Positions 3,207-28,080 are shown, numbered from the stretch's first letter. The stretch: DNA of 40,863 nt from Filifactoraceae bacterium (GCA_041845175.1 JBGZCE010000137.1:1-40863), one strand, 5' to 3'. Translations and numbers: made by a program. Notes: generated by a model not told the origin, from the sequence alone.

Positions 3207-3213
3207 AAAAAGT

Positions 3214-3248
3214 GAGCCGAAGTTTTTTGGAAACTCGGCTCTTTTTTA
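3214..3248 (+). terminator. Rho-independent terminator of the atp operon
   Basis: GAGCCGA (3214-3220) pairs with TCGGCTC (3235-3241), followed by a TTTTTT run. Confidence 0.8.
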
Positions 3249-3471
3249 CAAAACAATTTCTTGAAGCACAGATAAAATACTTACGAAATTAAAAGTTATT
3301 CCGGACGATCGAGAAGATTTGAAAATATTCCAAAGCGCCGTGAGCAAGCGAAAAAATAAGCGTTCAAAATATTTGCAAAAAAATTGAAAAAATGGATACA
3401 TATTTGAAAATTTGTGGTAACATAGAAAAAAATACTCTGAAGGGATTCCTTTGGGGGAAAGGAGGAAAGGT

Positions 3472-4017
3472 ATGAAGTCGGACATAAAGAGAGAAGAAAT
3501 GCTGGATGCGTTTATACAAGCCTTTACAGAGTACGGAATCGACAAGACATCGACAAAAAAATTGACCGCGAAGGCAGGGGTGAATGAAGCGCTACTCTAC
3601 TATTATTTCTCGGACAAGCATGACGCGGTGATCGCCTGCGTCAAGCGATGCTATGAGCGATACAAAAGTGGAACGGTCGACATTTTCCGCAAAAATATCG
3701 GGGATATTGACAAGATGATGGACAAGTTGCAGGCGTACACAAAAAAGACGATGCTCGAACAGCGATTCGCACTGGAAGTATTGACCCATCCGGTGTATTC
3801 GAAGAGCATTATCCCGAGTGTTGTTGCGCTCAACAAAGAGCTTGAAGACGATGTTCGAAAGCACGCAAGAGAAAGAGGCGTGGATGAAGATCTGCTCGTG
3901 ACATGGATCCAAATCGTAACCGATGCATTGGTCTACTATGTCATCACGAAAAACGAAGACAATTTCGTCAGCAAGAAAACCTTCATTGCGAACGAGATCA
4001 AAAAGCTGTTTGCATAA
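3472..4017 (+). CDS. TetR/AcrR family transcriptional regulator
   Basis: The N-terminal HTH (DKTSTKKLTAKAGVNEALLYYYFSDKHD) is TetR-like. The ATG at 3472 lies 6-8 nt after GGAGGAAAGG, so it is preferred over the TTG at 3451 used by the ORF track. Confidence 0.85.
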   Translation: MKSDIKREEMLDAFIQAFTEYGIDKTSTKKLTAKAGVNEALLYYYFSDKHDAVIACVKRCYERYKSGTVDIFRKNIGDIDKMMDKLQAYTKKTMLEQRFALEVLTHPVYSKSIIPSVVALNKELEDDVRKHARERGVDEDLLVTWIQIVTDALVYYVITKNEDNFVSKKTFIANEIKKLFA

Positions 4018-4043
4018 ACGATACTTAGAACTGACCGATGAAC

Positions 4044-4094
4044 AAAAGGGATTGCGCGGAATGAAATTTTTTCATTCCGGTGTAGTCCCTTTTT
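4044..4094 (+). terminator. Compound rho-independent terminator after the TetR gene
   Basis: Outer stem AAAAGGGA (4044-4051) pairs with TCCCTTTT (4086-4093). It encloses a perfect 10-bp hairpin, CGGAATGAAA/TTTCATTCCG (4057-4079), and ends in a T-run. Confidence 0.7.
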
Positions 4095-4267
4095 CGCATA
4101 CAAAACGGGTCGCTCTTGTCGAGCGCGCATGATAAAAGGATCCTCTATGCTCCCCTTTTTCGCGTACAATGCTGCTTACTCACGGGTCGATCGTCGCATG
4201 AGCTCGCTTCGGCTTTTGAGGGGCGGTCCATTATGCGTTTCAAATTCTTGCGGACCGTTTTGCAACA

Positions 4268-4292
4268 GTCGCCGGGAAAACGGCGATTTTTT
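4268..4292 (+). terminator. Second terminator-like hairpin with no obvious gene to terminate
   Basis: GTCGCCG (4268-4274), loop GGAAAA, CGGCGA (4281-4286), then TTTTTT (4287-4292). Confidence 0.5.
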
Positions 4293-4345
4293 ATGAAGCG
4301 CGAGAGGTTTTTTGTGTGCGCAAGACAGCTTAGCGTTTGATTGTA

Positions 4346-4374
4346 TTGACACATCGAGATTTTGGTGCTAAGGT
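4346..4374 (+). promoter_or_regulatory. Putative sigma-A promoter of the ATPase/Toprim pair
   Basis: Perfect -35 TTGACA (4346-4351), a 17-nt spacer and a weak -10 TAAGGT (4369-4374), about 50 nt upstream of the ATG at 4425. Confidence 0.4.
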
Positions 4375-4408
4375 AGTATTAGTTCTACTTTTCGGAACTA
4401 ACACTACC
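4372..4408. promoter_or_regulatory. 14-bp inverted repeat (operator or 5'-UTR hairpin) between promoter and RBS
   Basis: GGTAGTATTAGTTC (4372-4385) and GAACTAACACTACC (4395-4408) are reverse complements with one mismatch and a 9-nt loop. The repeat overlaps the -10 and precedes the AAAGGAGG RBS. Confidence 0.5.
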
Positions 4409-4424
4409 AAAAGGAGGCTATAAA

Positions 4425-5525
4425 ATGATCGTAATGAATTTGGAATTGAACAATTTGTATGCATTTAAGGATTTCAAAATCAATTTTTCATATCCCAAAA
4501 AGATCGTAAACTCATCGATCGAAGGAGAATATCTGCCGTCCAAGCCGAATTTTCGATATAAAAAAGTAAATATCCTTATGGGCGGAAATGCTTCGGGAAA
4601 AACCTCTCTTGGGCGAGCGATGGTGGACATCTTCAATTTTTTGGTGAGGGAAAAGACAGACCGCCTTGAAGAAGCGATCTGCAACAAGAACGACAATGCC
4701 TCCTTCAGCATCGATTTTGTGGAGGAAGGTACGCTATATCGAGCGGAGTGCATGATCAGAGCCGGCGAAAAGGAGACCACAAAAAAATTTGAGCTGGAAG
4801 TTTACGAAGCGAGCATCGCAAAAAAGGATTCTTATGAATCCTGTGTAAAAAAATTAAATAAAAAAATTGCTGATGAGGAGAGTACTTTTTTTGAAAAACT
4901 GGAAGCGCTCCCGAAGTTCGGCTGGCATTTTGCCTTGACCGACGACTTTCCCGGCGGTTTTTTTGTAAAAGACAAACATTCGGATCCGGAGATTTTGAGA
5001 ATCGTTTTGCAAGCGCTCGATACGGATATTCTTTCGGTAGAAGAGATCGAAGAGGTTGAAAACAGCTTTGTGATACGAAAAGAAAATCATTCCGTCATCA
5101 TTCAGGACGGTAAAACAATTACGGACAGCAAGCTCTCAAGCGGAACAAGGTCGGGAATAACGATTGCCCGGATGATCGGATCGATCAGACAAAGCTTTGC
5201 CGGTTGCTACTATTGCGATGAAAAATTTTCGTTTATCCATTCGGAACTGGAAAAGGCGATCCTGAGCATTATGATATCCTCGTTGAAAAACGAAAATCAG
5301 CTGTTCTTCACCACACACAATATGGAGATATTGAACATGGATCTTCCGGTACACAGCTTTACCTTTCTGAAAAAAAATCCCGTGATCGAAGCGGTCTATC
5401 CGGAGGATTATATCAAAAAAAACGATTTATCATTGTATAATGCGGTCAAAAACGATGTATTCAATTGTACTCCGAATCTGGAAAAGCTCTTTGAGCTGGA
5501 GGATATCCTGTATGAAGAGGACTAA
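4425..5525 (+). CDS. ABC-type (AAA_15/AAA_21-like) ATPase, candidate defense ATPase (AbiLi/AriA/OLD-N-terminal-like)
   Basis: 366 aa. Walker A GGNASGKTS, signature-like LSSGTRSG, Walker B YYCDE and H-loop FFTTHN. AAAGGAGG RBS. Visibly AT-richer than the flanking genes. Confidence 0.8.
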   Translation: MIVMNLELNNLYAFKDFKINFSYPKKIVNSSIEGEYLPSKPNFRYKKVNILMGGNASGKTSLGRAMVDIFNFLVREKTDRLEEAICNKNDNASFSIDFVEEGTLYRAECMIRAGEKETTKKFELEVYEASIAKKDSYESCVKKLNKKIADEESTFFEKLEALPKFGWHFALTDDFPGGFFVKDKHSDPEILRIVLQALDTDILSVEEIEEVENSFVIRKENHSVIIQDGKTITDSKLSSGTRSGITIARMIGSIRQSFAGCYYCDEKFSFIHSELEKAILSIMISSLKNENQLFFTTHNMEILNMDLPVHSFTFLKKNPVIEAVYPEDYIKKNDLSLYNAVKNDVFNCTPNLEKLFELEDILYEED

Positions 5526-6051
5526 AGGAAAAAAGTTTGTATATTTTGTGGAGGGCGAAAATGAAAAGGTTTTGATCAACTGTATCAAAAACCGATTTGT
5601 CGTGCCCGGTGTGGTGTCCGTATTCAATCCGCTGCAAAAAAATCTTAAAACACAGATTCGAATGCATCCGCCGAATACCTGCGTCATTTTGGTTTTTGAT
5701 ACCGACTCCGTTGAAGCGAGCAAAATCGAAATGCTGCGATCAAATATCCAAGCCTTGAAGAAGTCGAGGAATATCCAAGAGGTGATTCTGATTCCTCAGG
5801 TAAAAAATTTTGAAGATGAGCTGGTGGCGGCAACATCCGTTTCAAAAGCGATGGAATTTACAAATTCGAAAAGCGGGTCGGATTTCAAAAGAGATTTCAA
5901 CCGCATGGAGAAACAGCTGCTTGCAAAGCTGGAGGAATATCATTTTGACATTCGTCTGCTTTGGGCAAAGAATGCGGACAATGACTATCGAGAATTCAAC
6001 AATACGGCAGAAAAGATTAAATTGATTTCAAGTAAGGTCCCGAGAAAATAA
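5512..6051 (+). CDS. Small Toprim-like protein (RloB/DUF4435/DUF4276-like), partner of the ATPase
   Basis: 179 aa from the ATG at 5512 (GGAGG 10 nt upstream), overlapping the ATPase gene by 14 nt. Motifs: FVYFVEGENE (Toprim Glu), ILVFDTDS (DxD) and IPQVKNFEDEL (resembles the RloB C-terminal motif). Confidence 0.7.
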   Translation: MKRTKGKKFVYFVEGENEKVLINCIKNRFVVPGVVSVFNPLQKNLKTQIRMHPPNTCVILVFDTDSVEASKIEMLRSNIQALKKSRNIQEVILIPQVKNFEDELVAATSVSKAMEFTNSKSGSDFKRDFNRMEKQLLAKLEEYHFDIRLLWAKNADNDYREFNNTAEKIKLISSKVPRK

Positions 6052-6177
6052 GGGAGAATGATACGACTCGATCCTATTTCTCGGAGTTTTTGGAAATAGA
6101 GAGATGGCATTTTATGCTTGCTTGTGATAAAATGTTTCTATTGATAGGCTAACATTTTTGAATCGGAGGGAAACGGT

Positions 6178-6714
6178 ATGATTACGGAAATCAAAAACAA
6201 TATGAATGTGATCGAGTCGATGATCTATTTTTGGACGGCGGTGAGCGATCGTGAGAAGGTGGGTGAGCGTTATCTGGTGGAGCTGAGTGAATATCCGGAG
6301 ATGCAACTGCTTTACGACGGTGAGTTCAGCGGGGAGTCCGTGCGCAAGACGCTCAGTGCGATCTCTAACCGCGAGATGCTGAACAATTCCACGCAGAAGG
6401 AGCGCCAGTTCTGGAACAACAATATGTGGATGCTGGAGGATCTTTCGTTTATGAGCAATATGGTGGCGCCGCTGAAGGTGCTGAATTTTGATGCGCTCGT
6501 AGAGGAGATCAACAAGGAGAAGGATATCCGGACACCGAGCATCGAGGTGGTGTTTATTCCTGCGAACAAGGAGGAATTTTTTGTGAAGGGCAACAAGCTG
6601 GTGATCAACTTTTTCAGGGTGACGCCGGATTTGGTGCTGGGCGGCGAAGCGACGATCAACGGCAAGACGATCACGCAGTATGTCAAGGAAAAGATCATGA
6701 GCGAGTTCGAGTAG
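6178..6714 (+). CDS. Hypothetical protein
   Basis: 178-aa ORF with a GGAGGGAAACGG RBS and host-like GC and codon usage. I recognise no domain. Confidence 0.6.
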   Translation: MITEIKNNMNVIESMIYFWTAVSDREKVGERYLVELSEYPEMQLLYDGEFSGESVRKTLSAISNREMLNNSTQKERQFWNNNMWMLEDLSFMSNMVAPLKVLNFDALVEEINKEKDIRTPSIEVVFIPANKEEFFVKGNKLVINFFRVTPDLVLGGEATINGKTITQYVKEKIMSEFE

Positions 6715-24629: not shown

Positions 24630-26009
24630 TTGAGAGAGATCTTGCCGAATATCGACAAAGCAAGCAAAGAGCCGATGTATTTGCAGCTCTACAAATACAT
24701 CAGGGACGAGATCGAAAAAGGATTTTTGGGACAGGGCGAACGCCTGCCGTCCATCCGAGTGCTGGCGGGCAAGCTCGGCATCAGCGTGACGACGATCCGC
24801 ACCGCATACGACCAGTTGAGCATGGAGGGCTATCTGATCAACCGCGAAAAATCCGGCTACTATGTCGGAAAGCTCGACTACATCACCGAGGCGTACTCGA
24901 TGGCATATTCCTTTCGCGAGCAGGCGGAGCGTGCACAAAATCGAGATCCGATGATCTATGACGAGGAATGCTTCGACTTTGTTCGCTGGAAAAAATGCTG
25001 CGCCCATGTGCTGACCCATGAAACAAAAGCCCTGCTTGCCGAAGCCGATGTGCAGGGCGAGCTTCGGCTTCGCGAGCAGATCGCCAAATATGTTTTTCAA
25101 TCCCGCGGCGTGCATTCGCGCGCGGAGGAGATCGTGCTCGGAGCAGGCACGCAGGCGCTGATCAATATCTTGGCGGCGATTCTGCGCAGAGACGGCAAAC
25201 AGACGATCGGCTTCGAGAATCCGACCTACACGATGAATCAGCAGATTTTTGACGCACAGGGCTTTTTGACCTTCAACTTTGCTCTCGACAAGGAAGGGCT
25301 TCTGCCGGACGAACGCGCCAAAAAAATGCAGCTGCTCTATGTCAGTCCGTCGCACCAATTTCCGACCGGCATCGTCATGTCCGCCCAGCGCCGCTCACAG
25401 CTTTTGGCATGGGCAACGGAGCAAAAGAGCTATGTGATCGAGGACGACTACGACTCGGAGCTTCGATACTTCGGACGCCCGATCCCCGCGCTCAAGGCGA
25501 TGGACAAAGCGAGCCGCGTCATCTATATGGGCTCCTTCTCCTCGACGCTGCTGCCGTCGATCCGCATCAGCTATCTGGTGCTGCCCGACGCACTGCTTGA
25601 TATTTACAAAAAGCTCAAGCACACCTACGCGCAGGGTGTGTCCAAGGTGGATCAGCTGACGCTGTGCAAATTTATGGAGGAAGGGCATTATCAGCGGCAT
25701 ATTCGGCGCATTCGGCGACTGTACAGCGAAAAATCCGCAAGGCTATCCGAGCTGTTTGCACTCCATCCGCGGACAAGGGTCATCAGCGACACCTCCGGAC
25801 TGTTTATGATCGTCGAGTTTGACAGCTCAAAAAGCGAAACACAGCTTGCGGAAAAATTCGTGCACGCCGGCATCAAGGCGACACCGCTCGGCAGCTACTA
25901 CAAAACGGGAGCCGCATCGCAAATGCCTCGGCTTTTGATCTACTTTTATAATATTGAAGGAAAATGGCTGATCGACACGATCAAAAAGCTTTGCGACGAA
26001 ATGGATTGA
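24630..26009 (+). CDS. MocR/GabR/PdxR-type regulator (GntR wHTH fused to a fold-type-I aminotransferase-like domain)
   Basis: wHTH LPSIRVLAGKLGISVTTIRTAYDQLSMEGYL; aminotransferase-like YVSPSHQFPTG and GSFSSTLLPSIRISYLV. The TTG at 24630 follows GGGAGGAG by 6 nt. The GTG at 24597 in the ORF track lies inside the upstream repeat and has no RBS. Confidence 0.8.
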   Translation: MREILPNIDKASKEPMYLQLYKYIRDEIEKGFLGQGERLPSIRVLAGKLGISVTTIRTAYDQLSMEGYLINREKSGYYVGKLDYITEAYSMAYSFREQAERAQNRDPMIYDEECFDFVRWKKCCAHVLTHETKALLAEADVQGELRLREQIAKYVFQSRGVHSRAEEIVLGAGTQALINILAAILRRDGKQTIGFENPTYTMNQQIFDAQGFLTFNFALDKEGLLPDERAKKMQLLYVSPSHQFPTGIVMSAQRRSQLLAWATEQKSYVIEDDYDSELRYFGRPIPALKAMDKASRVIYMGSFSSTLLPSIRISYLVLPDALLDIYKKLKHTYAQGVSKVDQLTLCKFMEEGHYQRHIRRIRRLYSEKSARLSELFALHPRTRVISDTSGLFMIVEFDSSKSETQLAEKFVHAGIKATPLGSYYKTGAASQMPRLLIYFYNIEGKWLIDTIKKLCDEMD

Positions 26010-26012
26010 TCC

Positions 26013-26150
26013 GCGAAACGGCGAGCCAACGGGTCCAAATGGATGTGAAGCATGTGCCTGCGGTTTGTATCGTCGGAGACGCTCAAGGAGAAAAGTTTTG
26101 CCAATACACTGCGCTTGATGAATTTTCCCGTTTTCGCCATGTGCCGAAGA
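26013..26150 (+). pseudogene. Fragment of a DDE (rve/integrase-core) transposase
   Basis: The translation RVQMDVKHVPAVCIVGDAQGEKFCQYTALDEFSRFRH resembles the first catalytic-Asp region of integrase-core transposases (xQxDVKxVP...YQYTAIDExSRxR). It has no start and no downstream continuation. Confidence 0.6.
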
Positions 26151-26233
26151 AAACGCTATTCAATTTTTTATGGCCGGGTGTAACATATGTTTGGCAAACC
26201 TACAAAGCCCTATTTTTTGAAAGCAAAATCGAG

Positions 26234-26263
26234 TTGTGTTTTCGCTATTTTATGTGGTATAAT
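26234..26263 (+). promoter_or_regulatory. Putative extended -10 promoter of the XRE/ORF6N pair
   Basis: -35 TTGTGT (26234-26239), 18-nt spacer, TGgTATAAT (26255-26263), 24 nt upstream of the ATG at 26287. GGAGG RBS. Confidence 0.55.
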
Positions 26264-26286
26264 TAAAACAATTTTGGAGGTGCTTT

Positions 26287-26490
26287 ATGAGTGTTTCTTA
26301 TAAAAAATTATGGATCCATTTAATAGAAAAAAATATGAAAAGAACCGATTTGATAAAGCTCACAGGCATTACCTCGAACACCTTAGCCAATATGGGCAAA
26401 GACGAATATATATCCATGAAAAACTTAGAAAAAATATGTAGAGCAATGAATCTGACTCCGAGTGATATATTGGAATTTGTGGAGGATTAG
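26287..26490 (+). CDS. Small XRE-family helix-turn-helix protein
   Basis: 67 aa. MKRTDLIKLTGITSNTLANMGKDEYISMKNLEKICRAMNLTPSDILEF is a typical Cro/C1-type HTH. Confidence 0.8.
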   Translation: MSVSYKKLWIHLIEKNMKRTDLIKLTGITSNTLANMGKDEYISMKNLEKICRAMNLTPSDILEFVED

Positions 26491-26493
26491 CAC

Positions 26494-26847
26494 ATGAAAG
26501 ATGAGAAGACTTTGATACTGATAGATGAAACAAATATCACAGAACTGATTTATACCATTCGTGGAAAACAGGTGATGATTGATAGGGACTTAGCTTCTTT
26601 ATACCAAGTTGAAACGAAGTATTTAAATAGGCAGAGAAGCAGAAATGCTGACAGATTTCCGGAGGATTTTTGTTTTCAATTGACAAAAGAAGAATATGAA
26701 GTTTTGAGGTGCCAAAATGTCACCTCAAAAAATGAAGAAGGTTCGGGTGGTAGAAGATATATGCCGTATATGTTCACTGAACAAGGAATTGCGATGCTTT
26801 CCGCGGTTCTTAAAAATGATAATACACCCGATCTAAAAACTCATTAA
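26494..26847 (+). CDS. ORF6N (KilA-N-related) domain protein, apparently truncated at the C-terminus
   Basis: [57 protein letters not shown]...[24 protein letters not shown] matches the ORF6N pattern. The similarity stops abruptly where the IS30-like remnant begins. Confidence 0.7.
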
Positions 26848-27045
26848 ATAGCCCCTCCGCAGTTGCATAATCTAAAGATTTTCTTGGCAGATCATTCATT
26901 TCATCGGTAAAGGATAAAATCTTCTCTGTTGTAAAACGATCGATGGATATTCCTTTGGGAACATTTCCACGAAAGCTTCGGTTATGAAACTCATTCTGCG
27001 GTCTTTCCCAAGAAGAATACGGGTGTGCAAAGTAAACGGAGGTAC
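26810..27045 (-). pseudogene. C-terminal remnant of an IS30-family transposase
   Basis: Minus-strand translation [64 protein letters not shown] is a degraded version of the IS30 C-terminus (YFxxPYxxWxRGxNENxNGLxRxxxPKG...LNxRPRKxLxxxTPxExF). The catalytic N-terminal two thirds are absent. Confidence 0.65.
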
Positions 27046-27122
27046 CCCGATTTTCAATCTCCGCAAAGAAGAAAAAGAAGAAAAAGAAGAATGATTGCTT
27101 CGAGGATATTGCTTTCGCATAC

Positions 27123-27175
27123 AAAAAAGGGGCAGCCGCAGAATGAGCAGAGCTCATTTTGCAGCAGCCCCTTTT
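27123..27175 (-). terminator. Rho-independent terminator of the surface-protein gene
   Basis: AAAAGGGGC (27125-27133) pairs with GCCCCTTTT (27167-27175), with an inner AATGAG/CTCATT hairpin. On the minus strand the stem is followed by a U-run. Confidence 0.7.
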
Positions 27176-27204
27176 CGGGTGGAGATTCCGTCGGTCGGGA
27201 ATCC

Positions 27205-28080
27205 TTATCTTTTCTTGGAGCTGAATTTTATCTTATTCGGCAGGACAGCCGGCGGAATCACCGCTTGTATCGGCTCGATCGAACCGATCCCTGTTTTCGG
27301 AACGGTCTTGATGTTCTGAACGACCGGTGCCGAGCTGAGCGGAACGGACGGATCGGCGATCGTTGTATCCGTTGCCGGCGTTGTCCCTGCTGCCGGATCG
27401 GTCGCCTTAGTCGGGTCGGTCGGCTTTGTCGGATCAGTCGGCTTTGTCGGATCAGTCGGCTTTGTCGGATCGGTTGCCGCCGGATCAGTTTCTTTGGTCG
27501 GATCAGTTTCTTTGGTCGGATCAGTTTCTTTGGTCGGATCAGTTTCTTTGGTCGGATCAGTTTCTTTGGTCGGATCAGTTTCTTTGGTCGGATCGGTTGC
27601 CGCCGGATCAGTTTCTTTGGTCGGATCGGTCGGATTCGTTCCCGGAGGTGTGTACGGATCCGGTCTTACCGGAGAATTCGGCTGAGAACCGCCCCCGCCG
27701 CCACTATTGCCGCCGGAGGTCTGAACGGGAACCCATATTGCATAAAGAGTAACATCAGCACCAAAGCTTAGTCGGAGTTGGTCACCTGGGTATAGTATCT
27801 GTTCTGGGTCGGTCGGAGTACCTAGGCGCAACCAATGAGCAAATTCCATGCCCGGCGGAGCGGTAAAGGGATTAGCGAATTCATCTAATCGAAGAACCGT
27901 ATGCACATAGTCGTTGCCATTTTGCCGGTATGCATTACTTGCAATGGGATTACCTGTTCCTCCTTCGCCCGGATAATAACGGACGGTGATAGAATTCGCA
28001 TGCGCGCTCATCAATCCGATCCACAGTGTGCTGATCGCCACCAATAATGCGATCTTCAAAAAAAATCTTGTTCGTTTCAT
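27205..28080 (-). CDS. Secreted surface protein: Listeria-Bacteroides (Flg_new-like) repeat domain, Thr/Pro/Asp-rich hexapeptide repeats and a VPKTG sorting-signal-like C-terminus
   Basis: ATG at 28080 (RBS AAGGGGG) gives the signal peptide MKRTRFFLKIALLVAISTLWIGLMSAHA. ITVRYYPGEGG...FAHW...DVTLYAIW resembles the Flg_new repeat. There are about 13 TDPTK[EP]-type units. The C-terminus is VPKTG, a semi-hydrophobic stretch, then KKR. Confidence 0.8.
   Translation of the reverse strand: MKRTRFFLKIALLVAISTLWIGLMSAHANSITVRYYPGEGGTGNPIASNAYRQNGNDYVHTVLRLDEFANPFTAPPGMEFAHWLRLGTPTDPEQILYPGDQLRLSFGADVTLYAIWVPVQTSGGNSGGGGGSQPNSPVRPDPYTPPGTNPTDPTKETDPAATDPTKETDPTKETDPTKETDPTKETDPTKETDPTKETDPAATDPTKPTDPTKPTDPTKPTDPTKATDPAAGTTPATDTTIADPSVPLSSAPVVQNIKTVPKTGIGSIEPIQAVIPPAVLPNKIKFSSKKR
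27395..27640. repeat. 18-bp tandem repeat array inside the surface-protein gene
   Basis: GGATCAGTTTCTTTGGTC occurs six times head to tail without mismatch (27482-27589) and once more at 27605-27622. It is flanked by the variants GGATCAGTCGGCTTTGTC (x2) and GGATCGGTTGCCGCC. Confidence 0.95.

What the first reader, a model, noticed from the sequence alone, without database searches (positions are those of the whole stretch)
4346..6051. AT-rich two-gene island: ABC-type ATPase translationally coupled to a small Toprim/RloB-like protein (PARIS/AbiL/split-OLD-like candidate defense module)
Seen in sequence: a 366-aa protein with Walker A (GGNASGKTS), an ABC signature-like LSSGTRSG, Walker B (YYCDE) and an H-loop (FFTTHN). 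It is followed, with a 14-nt overlap, by a 179-aa protein carrying a Toprim-style Glu (FVEGENE), a DxD (VFDTDS) and an RloB-like PQVKNFEDEL motif. The pair is visibly AT-richer than the flanking atp, TetR and GNAT genes. It has its own TTGACA promoter and a 14-bp inverted repeat over the -10/5'-UTR, and it sits behind two consecutive terminators. Established knowledge: the ABC-ATPase plus Toprim architecture defines OLD-family nucleases (fused, e.g. Gabija GajA), PARIS (AriA/AriB) and AbiL (AbiLi/AbiLii, RloA/RloB), all anti-phage systems. Inference: this is a compact, possibly divergent member of that supergroup acquired horizontally. Both proteins look short compared with my recollection of typical family members, which could mean a distinct subfamily.
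Basis: partly seen in the sequence, partly recalled or inferred. Interest (0 to 1): 0.75.

Follow-up and report, generated by a model that had tools for sequence, protein, structure and literature searches.

The report
Compact AbiL-like ATPase–nuclease defence pair
Two tightly linked genes, an ABC-type ATPase and a very small probable Toprim nuclease, form a compact and so far uncharacterised branch of the known AbiL/PARIS/OLD type of anti-phage systems, and they travel with a conserved 25-bp palindrome at their promoter that nobody seems to have described.

Summary
Two genes overlap by 14 nt: A (4425-5525, 366 aa) and B (5512-6051, 179 aa). A has intact Walker A, signature, Walker B and H-loop motifs. 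B has invariant E, DxD, EDE and K motifs. At 40.8% GC the pair is the most AT-rich stretch of the 40.9-kb window.

A is securely an ABC ATPase. It matches PADLOC AbiLi at 1e-28, and Foldseek matches PtuA, Rad50 and SMC heads at about 1e-10.

B is probably a minimal OLD-like Toprim. Its motif order and predicted topology fit. Its profile hits are sub-threshold, RloB gives nothing, and Foldseek finds no Toprim structure.

The pair is a real module. A lies directly upstream of B in 80 of 80 genomic loci from several phyla, in IMG/VR viral contigs, in one phage genome and on an Acinetobacter plasmid. There is no conserved third gene.

It sits at the transcription start in front of A in 68 of 83 sources and almost nowhere else. 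Its half-site sequence is conserved but hairpin stability is not, which favours a DNA operator.

Best reading: an autoregulated abortive-infection or defence pair. It is a new variant of a known kind and has not been tested experimentally.

The parts
4346..4374 (+). Predicted sigma-70-type promoter: TTGACA (4346-4351), 17-nt spacer, TGc-TAAGGT (-10 at 4369-4374)
   Evidence: Read directly from the sequence. The -10 is weak, and the consensus scan did not list the site. In homologous loci, clear TTGACA/TATAAT-like boxes sit 0-13 nt upstream of the conserved element.
4378..4402 (.). Conserved 25-bp leader palindrome ATTAGTTC-N9-GAACTAAC. The family consensus is ATTAsTTC-N9-GAAnTAAT. In this genome the arms extend to 4372-4408.
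   Evidence: Inverted repeat. Regex census: 40 of 79 upstream regions versus 6 of 1580 shuffles, with the spacer fixed at 9 nt in 39 of 40. The sequence-only model R1 finds it at E of about 0.002 or better in 68 of 83 sources, always just upstream of A; the 3 off-target hits have E>=0.15. It is also present on IMG/VR viral contigs.
4410..4417 (+). Shine-Dalgarno sequence AAAGGAGG for gene A
   Evidence: Sequence; 7 nt before the ATG at 4425.
4425..5525 (+). Gene A: 366-aa ABC ATPase with a Rad50/SMC/PtuA-like head, AbiLi-like
   Evidence: PADLOC AbiLi 9.7e-29. Pfam AAA_21 26.7 bits against a cut-off of 27, and AAA_15. AF2 pLDDT 84. Foldseek matches PtuA, Rad50 and SMC heads at about 1e-10. PHROG 5836 at 2.5e-56.
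4581..4604 (+). Walker A / P-loop GGNASGKT (residues 53-60)
   Evidence: G53, N55, G58, K59 and T60 are invariant in the family.
5133..5147 (+). ABC signature LSSGT (residues 237-241)
   Evidence: L237, S238, G240 and T241 are invariant.
5217..5222 (+). Walker B catalytic Asp-Glu (D265-E266, within YYCDE)
   Evidence: Invariant.
5316..5318 (+). H-loop histidine (H298, within FFTTHN)
   Evidence: Invariant.
5498..5502 (+). Shine-Dalgarno sequence GGAGG for gene B, inside the 3' end of A
   Evidence: Sequence.
5512..6051 (+). Gene B: 179-aa probable minimal OLD-like Toprim nuclease with a short C-terminal helical part
   Evidence: AF2 pLDDT 92.2, with beta-alpha-beta-alpha-beta-alpha-beta topology followed by helices. 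13 of 47 family members hit Pfam OLD-like_TOPRIM_1 below threshold. PADLOC AbiLii 0.0024. PHROG 10204 at 1.8e-16. No Foldseek support.
5551..5565 (+). Candidate Toprim glutamate E14 and acidic residue E18 (VEGENE)
   Evidence: E14 and G15 are invariant. They sit right after strand 1 of the model. The E / E+4 spacing matches E400/E404 of B. pseudomallei OLD (PMC6755086).
5698..5706 (+). Candidate DxD motif D63-T64-D65 (VFDTDS)
   Evidence: Invariant; at the end of strand 3.
5812..5820 (+). Acidic cluster E101-D102-E103 (PQVKNFEDEL) at the start of the first helix after strand 4
   Evidence: E103 is invariant and E101/D102 are conserved in at least 90% of members. The position parallels T506/E508 of B. 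pseudomallei OLD.
5887..5889 (+). Invariant lysine K126 (DFK) in the helical part
   Evidence: Invariant. It is a candidate equivalent of K562 of B. pseudomallei OLD; this is an inference.
6040..6090 (+). Weak candidate terminator: 8-bp arms (6040-6047 and 6077-6084) followed by AGTTTTT
   Evidence: The loop is long (29 nt), so confidence is low.

Best explanation
This is a self-contained two-gene conflict module of the 'ABC ATPase plus separate Toprim nuclease' type. Most likely it is an abortive-infection or anti-phage system that works like PARIS or AbiL.

The proposed mechanism has four steps, all inferred rather than shown:
1. Gene A makes a catalytically competent Rad50/SMC-like ABC ATPase that acts as sensor and keeper.
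2. Gene B makes a minimal OLD-like Toprim metal-dependent nuclease that acts as effector.
3. In uninfected cells A holds B inactive.
4. A phage-derived cue changes A's state, and B is then released or activated to cut nucleic acid, either tRNA or DNA, which stops the infection.

The operon is read from its own promoter. A conserved 25-bp palindrome at the transcription start most likely serves as an operator through which the module represses itself. No other gene travels with the pair, so the binding protein would be A, B or their complex.
For: Shown:
- A has every ABC catalytic motif invariant.
- A's best defence model is AbiLi at 9.7e-29, followed by mad3, AriA and PtuA.
- A's model matches PtuA, Rad50 and SMC heads at about 1e-10.
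- B's family keeps E14, E/D18, D63xD65, E101-D102-E103 and K126 in the same order as the catalytic set of B. pseudomallei OLD: E400, E404, D455xD457, T506/E508 and K562.
- The model places E14 after strand 1 and DxD after strand 3 of a four-strand alpha/beta core, at pLDDT 92.
- 13 of 47 members hit Pfam OLD-like_TOPRIM_1 (best 8.7e-6), and 12 of 47 hit PADLOC AbiLii.
- A lies directly upstream of B on the same strand in 80 of 80 loci from Clostridia, Erysipelotrichales, Fusobacterium, Treponema and Melainabacteria.
- The pair also occurs on a phage genome between the portal and terminase genes, on IMG/VR contigs and on a mobilizable Acinetobacter plasmid.
- There is no conserved third gene, large or small.
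- About one immediate neighbour in ten hits a defence or candidate-defence model, and integrases and HicB antitoxins also occur.
- The pair has the lowest GC in the window.

For the operator:
- The half-site sequence and the 9-nt spacing are conserved in 68 of 83 sources and almost nowhere else.
- The element starts 0-13 nt after the -10 box.
- The central positions of the would-be stem are unpaired in 25 of 34 and 13 of 34 sequences.
- RNA folding is no better than shuffled sequence in several loci.

The mechanism is taken from published PARIS and OLD work (PMC11464382, PMC13064643, PMC6755086).
Against: - No experiment exists for this family.
- The Toprim assignment lacks a significant profile or structure match. 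Foldseek against PDB and BFVD gave only generic Rossmann-like hits at E>0.005. Profile comparison with P2 Old was not significant. A PDB sequence-profile search was empty.
- Pfam RloB and DUF4435 do not match.
- Immediate neighbours are mostly ordinary metabolic or regulatory genes.
- In this species the pair sits between the atp operon and flagellar/chemotaxis genes in every assembly read. It therefore looks fixed, not like a variable hotspot.
- A comparable ATPase+Toprim candidate, HEC-01, gave no protection in the one published test (bioRxiv 10.1101/2024.01.29.577857).
- Neither A nor B has a recognisable DNA-binding domain, so the autoregulation step is a guess.
Confidence: 0.6

Rival explanations
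1. The pair is a selfish toxin-antitoxin-like addiction module. B is a toxic nuclease and A its protein antitoxin, autoregulated through the palindrome. Its main effect is its own maintenance on mobile elements and in chromosomes, not phage defence.
For: It is a compact bicistronic operon with tight or overlapping junctions. It has a conserved promoter-proximal palindrome, as in type II TA operons. It is scattered across phyla and occurs on a plasmid and on phages. Neighbours include HicB antitoxins and integrases. PARIS itself behaves as a TA pair (PMC13064643).
Against: TA behaviour and defence are not exclusive. All characterised ATPase+Toprim pairs with a phenotype (AbiL, PARIS, OLD) act in phage exclusion. 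An antitoxin with fully conserved ATPase catalytic residues suggests regulated sensing, not simple neutralisation.
Confidence: 0.15
2. B is not a nuclease. It is a small regulatory or DNA-binding protein with a generic Rossmann/flavodoxin-like fold, for example the repressor that binds the palindrome. The effector activity would then lie in A or elsewhere.
For: Foldseek returns only generic alpha/beta folds such as SIS, flavodoxin, TIR and designed Rossmann proteins, all at E>0.01 against the PDB. No curated Toprim, RloB or DUF4435 model reaches threshold. Something encoded by the module must bind the conserved palindrome if it is an operator, and the helical domain of Class 2 OLD proteins resembles R-M controller proteins.
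Against: Five acidic positions and a lysine are invariant or nearly so, with exactly the order and placement of OLD catalytic residues. That is hard to explain for a pure DNA binder. The only models hit repeatedly across members are OLD-like_TOPRIM_1 (13 of 47) and AbiLii (12 of 47). The weak BFVD hits with high probability include primase, helicase-primase and topoisomerase proteins.
Confidence: 0.1
3. The pair is an accessory DNA-repair or recombination pair analogous to RecF-RecR or SbcCD: an SMC-like ATPase plus a Toprim or nuclease partner acting on host DNA ends.
For: A has weak hits to RecF and Rad50 models and to Rad50 and SMC3 chains. RecR carries a Toprim domain (established knowledge). 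In this species the pair is fixed in a housekeeping neighbourhood.
Against: Its distribution is patchy and it occurs on a phage, on viral contigs and on a plasmid. Its composition is atypical. It shows no synteny with repair genes. A's affinity for defence ATPase models (AbiLi 1e-28) is far stronger than for RecF (1e-3).
Confidence: 0.05
4. The conserved leader element acts as RNA, not as a DNA operator. It would be a 5'-proximal hairpin that sets mRNA stability or translation, or that is bound or cut by B, for example as a decoy substrate or an RNA partner.
For: In most loci the element lies downstream of the predicted -10 box and would be transcribed. It folds strongly in the window (-17.1 kcal/mol, z -4.3) and in L049. 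Columns 15/23 covary: GC 21, UA 6, AU 1. The distance to the start codon is mostly fixed at -44. Toprim effectors of PARIS, and reportedly OLD, are RNases.
Against: The middle of the stem is unpaired in 25 of 34 and 13 of 34 sequences. Folding is no better than shuffles in L042, L071 and L099. The spacer is fixed in length whatever its sequence. In the window the predicted transcription start (about 4381) falls inside the left arm. There is no Rfam match.
Confidence: 0.2

Closest known systems
AbiL (AbiLi + AbiLii) of Lactococcus, and the Campylobacter RloA/RloB pair
   Same: It is a two-gene operon with an ABC (Rad50/SMC-like) ATPase first and a separate small Toprim/OLD-like protein second. 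A's best model is PADLOC AbiLi (9.7e-29). The only defence model that B and 12 of 47 relatives touch is AbiLii.
   Different: B is far below any threshold for AbiLii, and Pfam RloB gives no hit. Both proteins are shorter: 366 aa against a 453-residue PARIS-i/AbiLi superposition, and 179 aa against a 206-residue AbiLii/OLD superposition, as given in PMC13064643. tblastn of A and B against 72,556 plasmids found no lactococcal plasmid. The conserved leader palindrome has not been reported for AbiL, as far as the papers read here show.
PARIS (AriA + AriB; proposed Class 4 OLD)
   Same: Split ABC ATPase plus Toprim effector, often carried by phages or satellites. The likely logic is sensor-sequesters-effector (PMC11464382, PMC13064643). 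A has weak partial hits to AriA models (3.4e-7).
   Different: AriA (about 55 kDa) and AriB (about 35 kDa, DUF4435) are much larger. B has no AriB or DUF4435 hit. The trigger and the target are unknown here.
OLD family nucleases (P2 Old, Class 1; GajA of Gabija, Class 2; retron Class 3)
   Same: The same pairing of domains. B's conserved E, E+4, DxD, post-strand-4 acidic residues and Lys follow the order of the B. pseudomallei OLD two-metal site. B's VEGxxE motif aligns to LVEGKTE of P2 Old.
   Different: In OLD proteins the domains are fused in one 520-600-aa polypeptide. Here they are separate, and the 150 best-scoring of 957 B-family representatives are all 120-215 aa. Comparison with P2 Old is not statistically significant. 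There is no UvrD-like GajB partner and no retron.
HEC-01 (PADLOC candidate: ABC ATPase + Toprim protein embedded in Hma systems)
   Same: The same two-gene domain logic. A few weak hits link A to HEC-01A and one B relative to HEC-01B.
   Different: The hits are marginal (E 1e-3 or worse). HEC-01 showed no protection in its published test. The genomic context differs, since this pair is not embedded in Hma.
Septu / retron PtuA ATPases
   Same: They are the closest solved structures to the A model (Foldseek about 1e-10, TM about 0.4-0.5).
   Different: PtuA works with an HNH nuclease, PtuB, not a Toprim protein. Sequence hits to PtuA models are weak.

Membership tests
ABC ATPase (Rad50/SMC/RecF-like clade) | Walker A, ABC signature (LSGG-like), Walker B D-E and H-loop His present and conserved | tested here: met
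   GxNxxGKT, LSSGT, D265-E266 and H298 are invariant in 41-46 homologues.
ABC ATPase (Rad50/SMC/RecF-like clade) | Fold similarity to solved ABC heads | tested here: met
   The AF2 model (pLDDT 84) matches PtuA, Rad50 and SMC heads; 205 PDB chains at E<=0.001, top about 1e-10.
AbiL (PADLOC/DefenseFinder sense) | First gene matches an AbiLi model | tested here: met
   PDLC02335 AbiLi at 9.7e-29, covering residues 4-359.
AbiL (PADLOC/DefenseFinder sense) | Adjacent second gene matches an AbiLii model | tested here: inconclusive
   PDLC02337 AbiLii at E=0.0024 for B. It hits 12 of 47 family members, best 2.5e-4. Whether PADLOC's own cut-offs would accept this could not be checked.
AbiL / RloAB | Second protein belongs to Pfam RloB (PF13707) | tested here: not met
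   No RloB hit at E<=1 for B. RloB is not among the families listed for the 47 relatives at E<=0.1.
AbiL / RloAB | Detectable similarity to the lactococcal AbiLi/AbiLii or Campylobacter RloA/RloB proteins themselves | not testable with these tools
   The reference sequences were not at hand. tblastn against PLSDB plasmids gave no lactococcal hit.
PARIS | AriA-type ATPase plus AriB (DUF4435 Toprim) | tested here: not met
   AriA models give only 3e-7 to 3e-4, and only partial alignments. There is no AriB or DUF4435 hit for B or its relatives.
OLD family nuclease | ATPase and Toprim fused in one polypeptide | tested here: not met
   The genes are separate in the window and in all 80 loci. The 150 best-scoring B-family representatives are 120-215 aa.
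Toprim domain | Four-strand parallel sheet with the conserved Glu after strand 1 and DxD after strand 3 | tested here: met
   AF2 model at pLDDT 92: strands 8-13, 34-37, 56-63 and 88-96. E14 and D63xD65 are invariant. The definition is taken from PMC6755086. This rests on a predicted model, not a solved structure.
Toprim domain | Significant profile or structure match to a known Toprim family | tested here: inconclusive
   Pfam OLD-like_TOPRIM_1: 13 of 47 members, best 26.1 bits against a cut-off of 27. Toprim_2: 2 members. OLD-like_TOPRIM: 1 member. The window's own B hits none of these. Foldseek PDB and BFVD: nothing at E<=0.001. hhalign and hmmsearch against P2 Old were not significant.
OLD-type two-metal nuclease site | Extra acidic residue at E+4, acidic residues at the start of the helix after strand 4, and a Lys in the helical domain | tested here: met
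   E/D18, E101-D102-E103 and K126 are conserved. They are positioned as E404, T506/E508 and K562 of B. pseudomallei OLD. Spatial equivalence was not verified.
Defence-island resident | Neighbourhood enriched in known defence genes | tested here: inconclusive
   Of 132 immediate neighbours, roughly a dozen hit defence or candidate models at E<=1e-10. Three are integrases and three are HicB. Most are unrelated genes. No background rate was computed.
Autoregulated TA-like operon | Palindromic operator at the promoter, bound by a module protein | not testable with these tools
   The palindrome is conserved and specific to this position. Binding was not testable.

The most novel reading that the evidence does not exclude
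The module is a three-part unit: the ATPase, a mini-Toprim and a module-specific 25-bp operator. The A-B complex, possibly through B's short helical domain (the counterpart of the controller-protein-like domain of OLD nucleases), sits on its own promoter. The phage cue that releases B as a nuclease would at the same moment derepress the operon. Sensing, effector release and transcriptional amplification would then be coupled in the smallest known ABC-ATPase/Toprim system. A still more unusual variant is that the transcribed palindrome is an RNA partner or decoy substrate of the Toprim RNase.
Probability: 0.25. Interest if true: 0.65.

Novelty: new variant of a known kind. Interest (0 to 1): 0.5.

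Why it matters
ABC-ATPase plus Toprim systems (OLD, Gabija, PARIS, AbiL) are among the commonest anti-phage devices. How the ATPase restrains and releases the nuclease is understood only for PARIS.

This family matters for four reasons:
- It is a stripped-down version: 366 aa plus about 170 aa, with no accessory gene.
- It is widespread in gut and oral anaerobes: 957 clusters at 50% identity, spread over several phyla.
- It is missed or only half-recognised by current annotation. Public records name B and its relatives at most 'hypothetical protein' (B's own cluster carries no name), and B's PHROG is 'unknown function'.
- Its small size makes it attractive for structural and mechanistic work.

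The conserved, module-specific palindrome gives a directly testable handle on how such systems are kept silent. It would also be a useful genomic marker for finding further members.

Tried and rejected
- NCBIfam on A and B gave only marginal RecF, Rad50, MAD3 and PtuA hits and nothing for B.
- A PDB sequence search with B's profile gave nothing meaningful (best was ribosomal protein L38 at 0.022). With A alone it gave nothing. With A's profile it gave only Rad50 and SMC3 at 1e-4 to 1e-2.
- Foldseek of the B model against PDB and BFVD gave no significant match.
- The consensus sequence of the B family did no better against Pfam than single members did.
- I tried walking out from the divergent Acinetobacter partner with the last homology search. 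It returned 7 near-identical proteins and no Pfam label, a dead end.
- hhalign and hmmsearch of the B profile against P2 Old gave a coherent register but no significance.
- tblastn of P2 Old against all fetched loci found no OLD homologues to use as comparators.
- Is the TetR gene upstream (3451-4017) the regulator acting on the inverted repeat? Rejected as the general explanation. The same palindrome occurs in front of A in dozens of loci without any conserved neighbour. A local contribution by TetR is not excluded.
- Could the palindrome be conserved because it is coding? Rejected. Its distance to the ATG varies in frame, and 59 of 78 loci have in-frame stops.
- Known operators recalled from memory, such as the Cheo/LexA box and CIRCE, do not fit the half-site orientation or spacing. 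This is from my own knowledge and was not tested.
- Rfam gave no match, either over the whole window at gathering threshold or over two leader regions at E<=1.
- The search for same-species assemblies lacking the pair found none. All contigs read carry it in the same context.
- The organism could not be named, because the cluster look-up returned no names.
Full report
**1. What is in the sequence**

Two same-strand ORFs occupy 4425-5525 (A, 366 aa) and 5512-6051 (B, 179 aa). B's start is an internal ATG of a longer ORF beginning at 5440. Three things support it. A GGAGG lies 9 nt upstream. The N-termini of 47 homologues align to it. Independent public gene calls on same-species assemblies give the same product. 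The 14-nt overlap is real.

A+B has 40.8% GC, the lowest of 393 equal-sized windows in the 40.9-kb window (mean 52.1%, sd 3.9). The TetR gene just upstream (45%) and the spacer before it (31%) are also low, so the AT-rich patch is wider than the pair.

TTGACA at 4346-4351 is exact. Seventeen nt later comes TGc-TAAGGT, which is a weak -10, and the consensus scan did not call the site. One canonical terminator lies at 4267-4288. A perfect hairpin without a T-run lies at 4057-4079. The inverted repeat at 4372-4385 / 4395-4408 is confirmed.

**2. Gene A**

Pfam gives only AAA_21 just under threshold (26.7 against 27 bits) and AAA_15. PADLOC's AbiLi model PDLC02335 matches at 9.7e-29 over residues 4-359. 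That is far ahead of mad3, PDC-M12A, AriA and PtuA.

Walker A, LSSGT, the Walker B D-E and the H-loop His are invariant in the family. The AF2 model has pLDDT 84. Foldseek matches it to Septu and retron PtuA, Rad50 and SMC heads at about 1e-10. A is an active-looking ABC ATPase of the Rad50/SMC-like defence clade.

**3. Gene B**

No curated model reaches threshold for the window's protein: Pfam, NCBIfam and PDB sequence searches all fail. PADLOC AbiLii gives E=0.0024. Among 47 relatives, 13 hit Pfam OLD-like_TOPRIM_1 (best 26.1 bits against a cut-off of 27) and 12 hit AbiLii. A few hit DUF3226, Toprim_2 or OLD-like_TOPRIM, and RloB is not among the families listed.

The family alignment has these conserved positions:
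- Invariant: Y11, E14, G15, G33, F62-D63-T64-D65, Q96, E103, K126, W151.
- Nearly invariant: E101, D102.

The AF2 model (pLDDT 92.2) is a four-strand beta-alpha core with E14 right after strand 1 and DxD at the end of strand 3. Short helices follow. This is the textbook Toprim arrangement as summarised in PMC6755086.

That paper also defines the OLD two-metal site: E400, E404, D455xD457, T506/E508 at the start of the first helix after the core, and K562 in the helical domain. B has E14, E/D18, D63xD65, E101-D102-E103 at the start of the helix after strand 4, and K126, in the same order.

Against this, Foldseek found nothing significant in PDB or BFVD. The weak BFVD hits with high probability do include primase, helicase-primase and topoisomerase proteins. 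Comparison with P2 Old put the motifs in a coherent register but without significance.

I therefore call B a probable, highly reduced OLD-like Toprim nuclease. It is not a proven one, and it is not an RloB-family member.

**4. The pair is a module**

A scan of one genome per species found 195 relatives of B. In the 80 loci kept, an A homologue lies directly upstream on the same strand in every case. Junctions range from -14 to +30 nt.

Hosts include Lachnospiraceae, Oscillospiraceae/Acutalibacteraceae, Erysipelotrichales, Eubacterium yurii, Fusobacterium, Treponema and Gastranaerophilales.

No other gene is conserved next to the pair. The best flanking cluster of 70 aa or more occurs in only 7 of 80 loci, and no small ORF is shared beyond near-identical loci.

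An exhaustive profile search counts 957 B-family clusters at 50% identity. The 150 best-scoring representatives listed are all 120-215 aa, so no fusions are seen among them.

The pair also occurs in three other settings:
- Phage NatCom_17901, between the portal and terminase genes on the opposite strand, again with a 14-nt overlap.
- 14 IMG/VR contigs.
- A mobilizable Acinetobacter plasmid, in diverged form. A is 30% identical, and the partner is linked to the B family by hhalign at 96.8% probability.

PHROGs place both proteins in 'unknown function' phage families.

Immediate neighbours are mostly unrelated genes. About one in ten hits defence or candidate-defence models, and there are a few integrases and HicB antitoxins. 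In the window's own species, every assembly read has the pair in the same place: atp operon, TetR, A, B, a TDE2712-family gene, GNAT, then flagellar and chemotaxis genes.

**5. The inverted repeat is a conserved family element**

Searching the 120 nt upstream of A in the homologous loci for the best inverted repeat returned the same sequence again and again. The consensus is ATTAsTTC-N9-GAAnTAAT.

- With at most one mismatch per half it occurs in 40 of 79 upstream regions, against 6 of 1580 shuffles.
- The spacer is exactly 9 nt in 39 of 40.
- It most often starts 44 nt before the ATG.

A sequence-only covariance model built from 34 copies was run over 1.1 Mb (83 sources). It found the element at E of about 0.002 or better in 68 sources, always just upstream of A. 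These include 34 loci not used for the model and the phage. The only three hits elsewhere had E>=0.15. It is also present in 7 of 8 IMG/VR loci with an intact upstream region.

It begins 0-13 nt after recognisable -10 boxes, so it sits at or just after the transcription start.

It is not coding. Its frame relative to the ATG varies, and 59 of 78 loci have in-frame stops. It matches no Rfam family.

**6. DNA operator or RNA hairpin?**

Evidence for a DNA operator:
- The middle of the putative stem is unpaired in 25 of 34 (columns 11/27) and 13 of 34 (columns 10/28) sequences.
- Predicted RNA stability is strong in the window (-17.1 kcal/mol, z -4.3) and in L049, but no better than shuffles in L042, L071 and L099.
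- Half-site sequence and spacing are conserved while the centre varies.
- In the window the predicted start site falls inside the left arm.

Evidence for an RNA role:
- Columns 15/23 do covary.
- The element is transcribed in most loci.

I favour a binding site for a dimeric protein (about 0.6) over an RNA role (about 0.2). The element follows the module across phyla, phage and viral contigs, and nothing else does. The simplest idea is therefore autoregulation by A, B or their complex. The upstream TetR gene cannot be the general explanation.

This step is inference, and neither protein has a recognised DNA-binding domain. The helical domain of Class 2 OLD proteins resembles R-M controller proteins, which makes B's helical tail a candidate.

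**7. How it most likely works**

By analogy with PARIS and OLD, A senses a phage-derived cue and controls B. B is a two-metal Toprim nuclease whose action on tRNA or DNA aborts infection. The operon is kept low by the palindrome.

Shown: the domain identities of A, the conserved catalytic-type residues, strict linkage, mobility and the cis element.

Inferred: the nuclease activity, sequestration, the trigger, the target, the defence phenotype and autoregulation.

Rivals are a purely selfish TA-like module, a non-nuclease B, and a repair function. They are listed separately with what would refute each.

**8. Comparison and novelty**

The closest named system is AbiL. A meets its ATPase criterion. 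B does not meet the RloB criterion and is only marginal for AbiLii. PARIS and fused OLD membership fail.

Functionally the pair belongs to the ABC-ATPase/Toprim supergroup. As a family it is a distinct, compact, uncharacterised branch with its own cis element. I rate it a new variant of a known kind, interest about 0.5. The architecture will not surprise a specialist. The minimal size, the breadth in anaerobes and the conserved operator make it a good, directly testable model.

Noticed in passing
L099 3899-5498 (phage NatCom_17901, PV036423.1): A complete phage genome from human faeces (Ca. Heliusvirales) carries the A-B pair (42% and 33% identity) between the portal and large-terminase genes on the opposite strand. 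It has the same 14-nt overlap and the leader palindrome 41 nt upstream. Both genes are annotated 'hypothetical protein'.
   Followed up: partly
L100 3001-4788 (Acinetobacter piscicola plasmid pYH12207-5, NZ_CP048664.1): A 12.7-kb mobilizable plasmid carries a diverged pair: a 416-aa ATPase 30% identical to A, and a 174-aa partner linked to the B family only by profile comparison. It lacks the leader palindrome. The family therefore reaches Gammaproteobacteria.
   Followed up: partly
L032 6715-6746 (Treponema sp. MAG): Here a perfect copy of the palindrome lies 191 nt upstream of A instead of about 44 nt. This implies a much longer leader or an unrecognised feature in between.
   Followed up: no
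homologues of A such as P0175, P0200, P0204; loci L027, L060, L065, L071, L077 and others: In 19 of 78 loci an in-frame upstream ATG lets gene callers extend A by 16 to about 80 residues straight through the palindrome (most by 16-30; peptides such as ..ISS.. or ..YYF..). These N-terminal extensions in public proteins are probably mis-called starts.
   Followed up: partly
cluster of window 4425-5525 (P0397, 137 aa, and P0401, 245 aa, on one 9799-bp contig): One same-species assembly encodes A as two fragments. This is either a frameshifted or inactivated copy or an assembly error.
   Followed up: no
window 3451-4017 and 3207-3450: The TetR-family gene directly upstream of the pair, and the spacer before it, are also AT-rich (45% and 31% GC). 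They may belong to the same acquired patch. TetR is not a conserved neighbour of the pair elsewhere.
   Followed up: partly
window 4018-4424: The spacer between TetR and A is unusually long at 407 nt. It contains overlapping palindromes at 4113-4138 and 4179-4202, besides the hairpin and the terminator. There is no Rfam match.
   Followed up: no
window 6178-6714: The gene downstream of B matches the NCBIfam 'TDE2712 family protein' (2e-65), a family of unknown function. Its GC3 (76%) is typical of the host, so it is not part of the island.
   Followed up: no
window about 25300-27800: This is the second AT-rich patch of the window (down to 41.6% GC). It contains an ORF6N-domain ORF (26494-26847, Pfam 7.5e-36), a domain typical of mobile elements and prophages, next to a GntR-aminotransferase regulator gene.
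   Followed up: partly
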